In this document: positions 22,995 through 23,163 of the stretch, piece after piece
Numbering within the stretch: the stretch's first letter is position 1
Layout of the letters: every line of letters begins with the position of its first letter
NCBI RefSeq assembly: GCF_000026545.1
Contig: NC_011601.1
Strand: one strand, 5' to 3'
DNA length: 64,000 bases
Source: Escherichia coli O127:H6 str. E2348/69
GTDB taxonomy: Bacteria; Pseudomonadota; Gammaproteobacteria; Enterobacterales; Enterobacteriaceae
Translations under genes and position numbers: made by a program
Notes under the pieces: generated by a model
Seen by the model: only the letters and a program-made list of their open reading frames with translations
What the model was told of the DNA's origin: nothing
Database searches by the model: none

Positions 22995-23121
22995 TACAGT
23001 GCCCCAAATGTCGGATGCGGCGTGAACGCCTTATCCGACCTACAGGGAACGCATGTGTTGATCACATAATACGTTTATGTCGCATCCTGCACTGTCCCAA
23101 AATGTCGGATGCGACGCTGGC
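22995..23121. repeat. REP (repetitive extragenic palindrome) cluster
   Basis: Repeated ccccaaatgtcggatgcggcgtgaacgccttatccgacctac-like units. Confidence 0.7.
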
Positions 23122-23163
23122 TGAACTGCACCCCAAATGTTGGACATAATCTGACATCTGAAG

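What the first reader, a model, noticed from the sequence alone, without database searches (positions are those of the whole stretch)
22995..23130. IS150-like element landed within a REP cluster
The outer IS of the nested cluster is flanked by REP-like palindromes on both sides (gatgcgacgctggc on the left, tttacgccgcatccggc on the right). REP arrays as insertion hotspots are one route by which intergenic regions accumulate IS nests. The norW terminator region may be disrupted.
Basis: seen in the sequence. Interest (0 to 1): 0.2.

Follow-up and report, generated by a model that had tools for sequence, protein, structure and literature searches.

The report
IS1397 inserted in a REP cluster
The mobile element next to norW is IS1397, an insertion sequence already known to insert only into the centres of REP palindromes, so its position here is expected; the one unusual detail is that its two ends sit in two neighbouring palindromes and 47 bases between them are missing.

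Summary
The window is E. coli E2348/69. The norW–hypF spacer is a three-unit REP cluster (BIME), and the outer IS (23122–27094) is flanked by REP halves. The interpretation needs sharpening. The IS is IS1397, an IS3-family element only about 51% identical in protein to IS150, and its REP-centre specificity is experimentally established. REPs are therefore its programmed target, not a passive hotspot. In a survey made here, 32 of 39 distinct IS1397 junctions abut a REP half-stem, and intact copies carry 3–4 bp target duplications at the REP centre. This copy is atypical. Its left end sits at the centre (TGGC) of REP 2 and its right end at the centre (TTTA) of the neighbouring inverted REP 3. 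It has no target duplication, and 47 bp present in empty sites are missing. That pattern implies two REP-centre-targeted events followed by loss of the interval. The inner nest did not form through REPs. ISEc21 targets the DDE codons of IS3-family transposase genes, which is published, using this very copy. The REP nearest norW is intact and no intrinsic terminator is predicted, so disruption of a terminator is not supported. Verdict: ordinary and already known, low interest.

The parts
21855..22988 (+). norW (NADH:flavorubredoxin reductase), upstream gene; stop codon at 22986–22988
   Evidence: ORF list; RefSeq annotation of the identical E2348/69 record
23010..23043 (+). PU1: complete REP/palindromic unit (GTCGGATGCGGCG TGAA CGCCTTATCCGACCTAC), intact
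   Evidence: Inverted repeat; folds as a hairpin; coordinates
23071..23087 (+). Degenerate half-REP (ACGTTTATGTCGCATCC), complementary to the PU2 left arm
   Evidence: Inverted repeat I3, 9/9 complementary; also present in empty sites
23104..23121 (+). Left arm plus centre of PU2 (GTCGGATGCGACGC TGGC); its right arm is missing
   Evidence: Alignment with empty sites, where it continues GCGTCTTATCCGACC; the stem motif ends 5 nt from the IS, the most common distance for IS1397 junctions
23122..24127 (+). IS1397 left segment (IS positions 1–1006: left inverted repeat, OrfA, N-terminal part of OrfB)
   Evidence: 3 differences in 1006 nt from the intact 1432-bp IS1397 of strain SK1144; IS3-family profile positions 1–245; RefSeq annotates it as 'IS3-like element IS1397 family transposase'
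24127..26758 (-). Inner IS3-family element (TGTAGTGG...CCACTACA; 1258 bp once ISEc21 is removed), inserted in IS1397 OrfB; no target duplication
   Evidence: Terminal inverted repeats and reconstruction; the rejoined ISEc21 target region (218 nt) is 100% identical to uninterrupted copies in other genomes
24444..25817 (-). ISEc21 (IS110 family, RNA-guided), 1374 bp, inserted between the codons ...FHSD|QGSQY... of the inner element
   Evidence: IS110 profile score 197.9 bits against a cut-off of 140; the boundaries equal the published clone LT903847.1:1801957–1803530 minus its 100-bp flanks
26759..26777 (+). 19-bp remnant identical to the 3' end of ISEc21 (TGACTCTTAGAAGGGCGTC), abutting the equivalent HSD|QG site of IS1397
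   Evidence: the complete ISEc21|IS1397 junction exists in other genomes and elsewhere in E2348/69
26778..27094 (+). IS1397 right segment (IS positions 1116–1432: C-terminal part of OrfB, right inverted repeat); positions 1007–1115 are missing
   Evidence: 0 differences in 317 nt from two other E2348/69 IS1397 copies; IS3-family profile positions 283–369
27095..27112 (+). Centre plus right arm of PU3 (TTTA CGCCGCATCCGGCA), an inverted REP; its left arm is missing
   Evidence: Empty sites read AGGCCGGATAAGGCG TTTACGCCGCATCCGGCA; the stem motif ends 4 nt from the IS
27136..29388 (-). hypF, the convergent downstream gene
   Evidence: RefSeq annotation mapped from L001

Best explanation
The outer element is IS1397, an IS3-family insertion sequence whose transposase directs insertion into the central loop of REP/palindromic units. 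The norW–hypF spacer originally held a BIME of three REPs: PU1 forward, PU2 forward, PU3 inverted. In the E2348/69 lineage the IS left end is joined to the centre of PU2 and the IS right end to the centre of PU3. The 47 bp between them are gone: the right arm of PU2, a 16-nt linker and the left arm of PU3. There is no target-site duplication. The most likely history is two REP-centre-targeted transposition events. Either two same-orientation IS1397 copies inserted into PU2 and PU3 and were then collapsed by recombination or deletion, or a copy in one REP made an intramolecular attack on the neighbouring REP centre. IS1397 was later hit by ISEc21 at its DDE codons and by another IS3-family element. 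A further deletion removed 109 bp of IS1397 and all but 19 bp of that ISEc21. The result is a dead, fixed nest shared by E2348/69 and two animal isolates. Shown: the identity of the element, the REP architecture, the junction positions, the 47-bp loss, the absence of a duplication, and the ISEc21 remnant. Inferred: the order of events and their mechanism.
For: The window is 100% identical to E2348/69, where the outer transposase gene is annotated as 'IS3-like element IS1397 family'. The IS segments differ at 3 of 1006 and 8 of 317 positions from an intact 1432-bp IS1397. Empty sites in strains N1420, ST131 and FORC_043 show ...GACGC TGGC GCGTCTTATCCGACCTGCGGGGATGAATATGTAGGCCGGATAAGGCG TTTA CGCC..., and the window lacks exactly the 47 bp between TGGC and TTTA. 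Six other IS1397 copies each sit at the centre of one REP or REP-like palindrome and carry a 3–4 bp duplication: TGGC, TTAC, TGC, TAA, TGG, TTTA. In metagenome contigs, 32 of 39 distinct left junctions abut a strict REP half-motif 2–6 nt from the IS, whereas only 0.05% of window positions qualify. Eleven of 13 copies with both ends present have a duplication. The window's two junctions lie 5 and 4 nt from the stem motif, which are typical values. IS1397 inserts into forward and inverted REPs in the same IS orientation (L007 and L009 against L008 and L012), so two same-orientation copies in PU2 and PU3 are feasible. Two metagenomic copies (L063, L069) likewise lack a duplication and carry flanks from different REPs, so rearranged copies recur. 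The REP specificity of IS1397 is experimentally established according to PMC1525189 and the primary papers it cites.
Against: No precursor was found in 5,426 complete E. coli genomes, whether an IS1397 with a duplication in PU2 alone, one in PU3 alone, or tandem copies. The two-event history therefore rests on junction anatomy only. The idea that the left and right IS segments come from two different IS1397 variants was tested and failed, because an intact E2348/69 copy (L011) has the same combination. The data cannot separate recombination between two copies from intramolecular transposition by one copy. The primary IS1397 papers could not be read here.
Confidence: 0.8

Rival explanations
1. 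A single IS1397 insertion into a pre-existing fused REP. On this view the 47-bp deletion between the PU2 and PU3 centres happened first and created a head-to-head palindrome, IS1397 then inserted once, and the target duplication was lost or never formed.
For: The PU2 left arm and PU3 right arm are complementary (GTCGGATGCGaCG / CGcCGCATCCGgC), so the fusion would still be a REP-like hairpin. One metagenomic copy (L045) sits with a TGGC duplication inside such a head-to-head palindrome.
Against: The flanks TGGC and TTTA share no base, so there is no 3–4 bp duplication, whereas 17 of 19 comparison copies have one. No genome among 5,426 shows the fused empty site. The best match to the joined flanks is strain N1420, in two pieces with the extra 47 bp.
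Confidence: 0.08
2. A single IS1397 insertion into PU2 (duplication TGGC) followed by an unrelated spontaneous deletion of 51 bp next to the right end of the IS, for example by slippage or hairpin processing in the BIME.
For: BIMEs are polymorphic at this locus. K-12 has two REPs, strain F344 has a different spacer, and the PU1 centre differs between E2348/69 and A25/N1420.
Against: The distal deletion endpoint falls exactly at the centre of PU3, 4 nt from the stem. That is the position and polarity IS1397 uses, and only a few percent of random endpoints would land there. The proximal endpoint is exactly the IS terminus.
Confidence: 0.07
3. One reading: REP arrays are passive insertion hotspots, and this is how intergenic regions accumulate nests of unrelated IS elements.
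For: Several IS families target REPs (PMC1525189), and the nest does lie in a REP array.
Against: Only the outer element touches a REP. The inner IS3-family element lies inside IS1397 OrfB. ISEc21 lies at the DDE-coding sequence of IS3-family transposase genes, its published RNA-guided target. The nest therefore grew by IS-into-IS insertion, not by repeated use of the REPs.
Confidence: 0.05

Closest known systems
IS1397 (IS3 family), the REP/BIME-specific insertion sequence of E. coli (Bachellier 1997; Clément 1999; Wilde 2001, 2003, as cited in PMC1525189)
   Same: About 99% nucleotide identity, the same terminal inverted repeats, the OrfA/OrfB organisation, and both junctions at REP centres.
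   Different: This copy has no target duplication, is bounded by two different REPs with a 47-bp loss, and is inactivated by nested insertions and an internal deletion.
   Same: Same family and a related transposase: OrfB is 51% identical over 98% of its length. From memory only, the terminal repeats are also similar.
   Different: Too divergent to be detected at the DNA level. It is a different element, and IS150 is not, to my knowledge, REP-specific (recalled, not tested here).
ISEc21 (IS110 family, seekRNA/bridge-RNA guided; Siddiquee et al. 2024, PMC11187229)
   Same: The copy at 24444–25817 is the very one cloned in that study. [quoted passage not shown]
   Different: Nothing differs. The additional 19-bp remnant next to the IS1397 right segment shows an earlier ISEc21 insertion in IS1397 that has since been deleted.
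BIME (bacterial interspersed mosaic element): REPs in alternating orientation between convergent genes
   Same: The empty site has REPs of two types in alternating orientation between norW and hypF.
   Different: In this lineage one REP pair has been reduced to two outer half-arms separated by a 3,973-bp IS nest.
Other REP-targeting IS elements (IS621, ISPpu9, ISPa11 of the IS110 family; ISKpn1, ISPsy8 of the IS3 family)
   Same: REPs serve as specific insertion targets.
   Different: The IS110-family members use an RNA guide. IS1397 specificity is attributed to its transposase protein (Wilde 2003, as cited).

Membership tests
IS1397 | Near-identity in nucleotide sequence to IS1397 (1432 bp) | tested here: met
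   3 of 1006 and 8 of 317 differences from the intact SK1144 copy, and 0 of 317 from another E2348/69 copy. RefSeq names it IS1397 family. The ISfinder reference sequence itself was not available.
IS1397 | IS3-family OrfA/OrfB transposase with a DDE domain | tested here: met
   The fragments match IS3-family profile NF033516 at positions 1–90, 89–245 and 283–369. Positions 246–282, which hold the second D, are deleted.
IS1397 | Terminal inverted repeats TGAACTGCACCCCAAA... / ...TTTGGGGTTCAGTTCA | tested here: met
   Both ends are present at 23122 and 27094 and are identical to those of intact copies.
IS1397 | Insertion at the centre of a REP/palindromic unit | tested here: met
   The left junction is 5 nt and the right junction 4 nt from a REP stem motif. 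The same holds for 32 of 39 surveyed junctions.
IS1397 | A 3–4 bp target-site duplication | tested here: not met
   The flanks are TGGC and TTTA. This is explained by a rearrangement between two REPs and does not argue against identity. Two of 13 surveyed two-ended copies also lack a duplication.
REP / BIME | An imperfect palindrome of about 35 bp with the GCCGGATGCGRCG...CGYCTTATCCGGCCTAC consensus | tested here: met
   PU1 in the window, and PU2 and PU3 in empty sites. The consensus itself is recalled from the literature.
REP / BIME | Successive units in alternating orientation, located outside genes | tested here: met
   PU2 is forward and PU3 inverted, lying between the 3' ends of the convergent genes norW and hypF.
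REP / BIME | High copy number in the genome | tested here: met
   The core motif occurs 5 times in 64 kb against 0.07 expected. REP-containing queries hit dozens of places per genome.
IS150 | Close sequence identity to IS150 | tested here: not met
   Only 51% amino-acid identity to IS150-family transposases, and no DNA-level match.
ISEc21 (IS110 family) | DEDD transposase with an upstream non-coding guide region, inserted at the IS3-family DDE codons without duplication | tested here: met
   IS110 profile score 197.9 bits. The rejoined target is 100% identical to uninterrupted copies. The coordinates equal the published clone. The guide RNA itself was not analysed.

The most novel reading that the evidence does not exclude
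The junction anatomy (IS termini at the centres of two adjacent REPs, interval deleted, no duplication) could be the footprint of REP-targeted intramolecular transposition by IS1397. If so, the element would not only insert into BIMEs but also actively delete or invert REP units. The two duplication-less copies with flanks from different REPs found in metagenomes would fit a recurrent process that contributes to BIME polymorphism.
Probability: 0.25. Interest if true: 0.3.

Novelty: already known. Interest (0 to 1): 0.12.

Why it matters
It matters little beyond bookkeeping. The case shows that the association between this IS and REPs comes from programmed target choice and not from a fragile intergenic region. 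It also shows that each layer of the nest has its own targeting rule: REP centre for IS1397, and DDE codons of IS3-family transposase genes for ISEc21. The 47-bp loss between two REP centres is a small example of how a REP-specific IS can remodel a BIME. It is also a reminder that a missing target duplication signals rearrangement. The locus has practical interest only because its ISEc21 copy is the one used experimentally to define seekRNA-guided transposition.

Tried and rejected
1. I tested whether the left and right IS1397 segments derive from two different IS1397 variants, which would have been direct evidence for two parental copies. The right segment is identical to the E2348/69 IS1397::ISEc21 copy (L010), while the left segment differs from it at 7 substitutions plus a 3-bp indel. 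However, an intact E2348/69 copy (L011) combines the same left and right types, so the argument was dropped.

2. I searched 5,426 complete E. coli genomes for the predicted precursor junctions: IS right end + TGGC + PU2 right arm, and PU3 left arm + TTTA + IS left end. Only the five records with the rearranged structure came back, plus look-alike junctions at other loci.

3. I tried to read the primary IS1397 papers (PMC94167, PMC169884, PMC95333). None is held, so I relied on citing papers and on my own survey.

4. I scanned for an intrinsic terminator or promoter around the norW 3' end and found none.

5. A DNA-level comparison with IS150 found nothing because the two are too divergent. A protein-level comparison was used instead.

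6. My first REP-motif regular expression was wrong. It was corrected.

Full report
**Source and layout**

The window is 100% identical to the chromosome of enteropathogenic E. coli O127:H6 strain E2348/69. In the RefSeq record, norW (window 21855–22988, + strand) and hypF (27136–29388, − strand) are convergent genes. The space between them holds pseudogenes annotated as an 'IS3-like element IS1397 family transposase', an 'IS3 family transposase' and an intact 'IS110-like element ISEc21 family transposase'.

**Checking the observation**

- 'gatgcgacgctggc' ends at 23121, immediately before the IS left terminus TGAACTGCACCCC (23122).
- 'tttacgccgcatccggc' begins at 27095, immediately after the IS right terminus GGGGTTCAGTTCA (27094).
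- The flagged interval also contains a complete REP (PU1, 23010–23043), which folds as the expected hairpin, and a degenerate half-REP (23071–23087).
- The REP core motif occurs 5 times in the window against 0.07 expected by chance.

**Identity of the outer IS**

- An intact copy in strain SK1144 is 1432 bp. It has the same termini and is flanked by a 4-bp duplication, TGGC, that is the centre of a REP.
- The window copy consists of IS positions 1–1006 (23122–24127; 3 differences from SK1144) and positions 1116–1432 (26778–27094).
- Its protein fragments match the IS3-family profile.
- OrfB is about 51% identical to IS150-family transposases, with no DNA-level similarity. 'IS150-like' is therefore true only at subgroup level.
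- IS1397 occurs in about 1,720 of 5,426 complete E. coli genomes.

**The empty site**

I joined the two flanks and searched all complete E. coli genomes. The closest empty sites (N1420, ST131 strains, FORC_043) are 47–51 bp longer than the joined flanks. The alignment shows the original array in these strains:

- PU1;
- a spacer;
- PU2, forward: GTCGGATGCGACGC-TGGC-GCGTCTTATCCGACC;
- a 16-nt linker;
- PU3, inverted: GGCCGGATAAGGCG-TTTA-CGCCGCATCCGGCA.

In the window, the IS left end follows ...GACGC TGGC and the IS right end precedes TTTA CGCC.... The 47 bp between them are absent, and there is no target duplication. K-12 has only the PU2–PU3 pair, and strain F344 has an unrelated spacer, so the locus is polymorphic.

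**Is the REP association chance, a hotspot, or specificity?**

- Papers held in the library state that IS1397 is experimentally shown to insert specifically into REPs and that its transposase determines this (PMC1525189 and the primary references it cites). The primary papers themselves could not be opened.
- I therefore surveyed junctions directly. Six copies from complete genomes each lie at the centre of one REP or REP-like palindrome and carry duplications of TGGC, TTAC, TGC, TAA, TGG or TTTA.
- A scan of metagenome contigs for the left end gave 57 loci and 39 distinct left flanks. Of these, 32 abut a strict REP half-motif 2–6 nt from the IS, and most of the remaining 7 are degenerate REP-like sequences. 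Only 0.05% of window positions satisfy the same rule.
- Of 13 copies with both ends present, 11 have a 3–4 bp duplication. Two (L063, L069) lack one and carry flanks from different REPs.
- The window's junctions, 5 and 4 nt from the stem motif, are typical.
- The REP is therefore the element's programmed target.

**History of this copy**

Both termini lie at REP centres, but of two different, adjacent REPs. The interval is missing and there is no duplication. The simplest reading is two REP-centre-targeted events. One version has copies in PU2 and PU3, in the same orientation, collapsed by recombination or deletion. The other has one copy whose end attacked the neighbouring REP centre.

- IS1397 is found in both forward and inverted REPs in the same IS orientation, so the first version is feasible.
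- No precursor exists among complete genomes.
- No genome shows a pre-fused empty site, because the best match to the joined flanks still carries the 47 bp.
- I tested whether the two IS segments are of different sequence types. An intact E2348/69 copy (L011) has the same combination, so that line of evidence was dropped.
- The same structure, with identical junctions, is present in a monkey isolate (A25) and a pig isolate (DCE7). The nest is therefore inherited and inert.

**The nest inside IS1397**

- The inner element (24127–26758, − strand) is an IS3-family IS of 1258 bp once ISEc21 (24444–25817, 1374 bp) is removed.
- A 218-nt stretch spanning the rejoined ISEc21 target is 100% identical to uninterrupted copies elsewhere.
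- ISEc21 sits between the codons FHSD|QGSQY.
- The 19 bp at 26759–26777 are identical to the 3' end of ISEc21. They abut IS1397 at the equivalent HSD|QG position.
- I predicted that intact ISEc21|IS1397 junctions should exist. I found them at 100% identity in several genomes and at 97.7% at another E2348/69 locus (yjbB–pepE, where IS1397 has a TAA duplication in a REP).
- This IS1397 copy therefore once carried its own ISEc21. A later deletion next to the inner IS, which also lacks a duplication, removed 109 bp of IS1397 and about 1355 bp of that ISEc21.
- None of this is new biology. Siddiquee et al. [quoted passage not shown] Their clone, LT903847.1:1801957–1803530, maps exactly to window 24444–25817 plus 100 bp on each side.

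**The norW terminator suggestion**

PU1, the REP nearest the norW stop codon, is intact. The IS begins 133 bp after the stop codon. No intrinsic terminator or promoter is predicted in 22800–23400. The suggestion is not supported, although an effect of losing PU2 and PU3 on transcript stability cannot be excluded without RNA data.

**Verdict**

All components are already annotated or published. The only detail that appears not to have been described is that this copy bridges two REP centres with a 47-bp loss. I rate it 'already known', with interest about 0.12.

Noticed in passing
window 24444-25817 (− strand): This ISEc21 copy is exactly the one cloned as the experimental model for seekRNA-guided transposition. 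LT903847.1:1801957–1803530 equals this element plus 100-bp flanks (PMC11187229).
   Followed up: yes
window 26759-26777: A 19-bp remnant of the ISEc21 3' end is joined to IS1397 at its HSD|QG codons. It is evidence of an earlier ISEc21 insertion in this IS1397 copy that was later deleted together with IS1397 positions 1007–1115. Intact versions of the junction exist in other genomes and at yjbB–pepE in E2348/69.
   Followed up: yes
window 24402-24438 versus L013/L014 (A25, DCE7): A cluster of 15 substitutions lies in the ~37 nt of the inner IS immediately next to the ISEc21 right end, while the rest of the nest is nearly identical. It looks like a short patch from a different IS3-family variant, from gene conversion or from flank carried along with ISEc21. 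It is unexplained.
   Followed up: partly
L011 (NZ_CP059840.2:757115-760431): In one E2348/69 assembly an intact IS1397 interrupts the coding gene gpr, with a TGG duplication, at a REP-like palindrome inside the gene (GCCGGATACGATATG TGG CCCGGTCCATACGGC). This suggests IS1397 is still active in this strain and can hit REP look-alikes within genes.
   Followed up: partly
E. coli genome hits H261–H274 (e.g. K-12 NZ_CP064678.1:3618885-3618949): A 65-bp fragment 96.9% identical to the last 65 bp of IS1397 is present, unannotated, at one locus in K-12 and in many genomes that lack IS1397. It is probably an old solo end remnant.
   Followed up: no
window 23023-23029 (PU1 centre): The centre of PU1 is GGCG-TGAA-CGCC in E2348/69 but GGCGCTGACGCGTC in A25, DCE7, N1420 and ST131. 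The REP centre switches type between close relatives.
   Followed up: no
window 27176-27499 (hypF 3' end): E2348/69 differs from A25 and DCE7 at 21 sites in about 325 bp of hypF, while the adjacent 4-kb IS nest is nearly identical. This suggests a recombination breakpoint just beyond the right end of the nest.
   Followed up: no
L063, L069, L045 (metagenome contigs): Two IS1397 copies lack a target duplication and carry flanks from different REPs. The left flank of L069 appears, by eye, to be the reverse complement of the right flank of L018 apart from one base, which suggests an inversion. L045 has a TGGC duplication inside a head-to-head fused REP.
   Followed up: partly
L013 (A25), corresponding to window 24709-24720: A 12-bp in-frame deletion in the ISEc21 transposase gene of strain A25 relative to E2348/69 and DCE7.
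   Followed up: no
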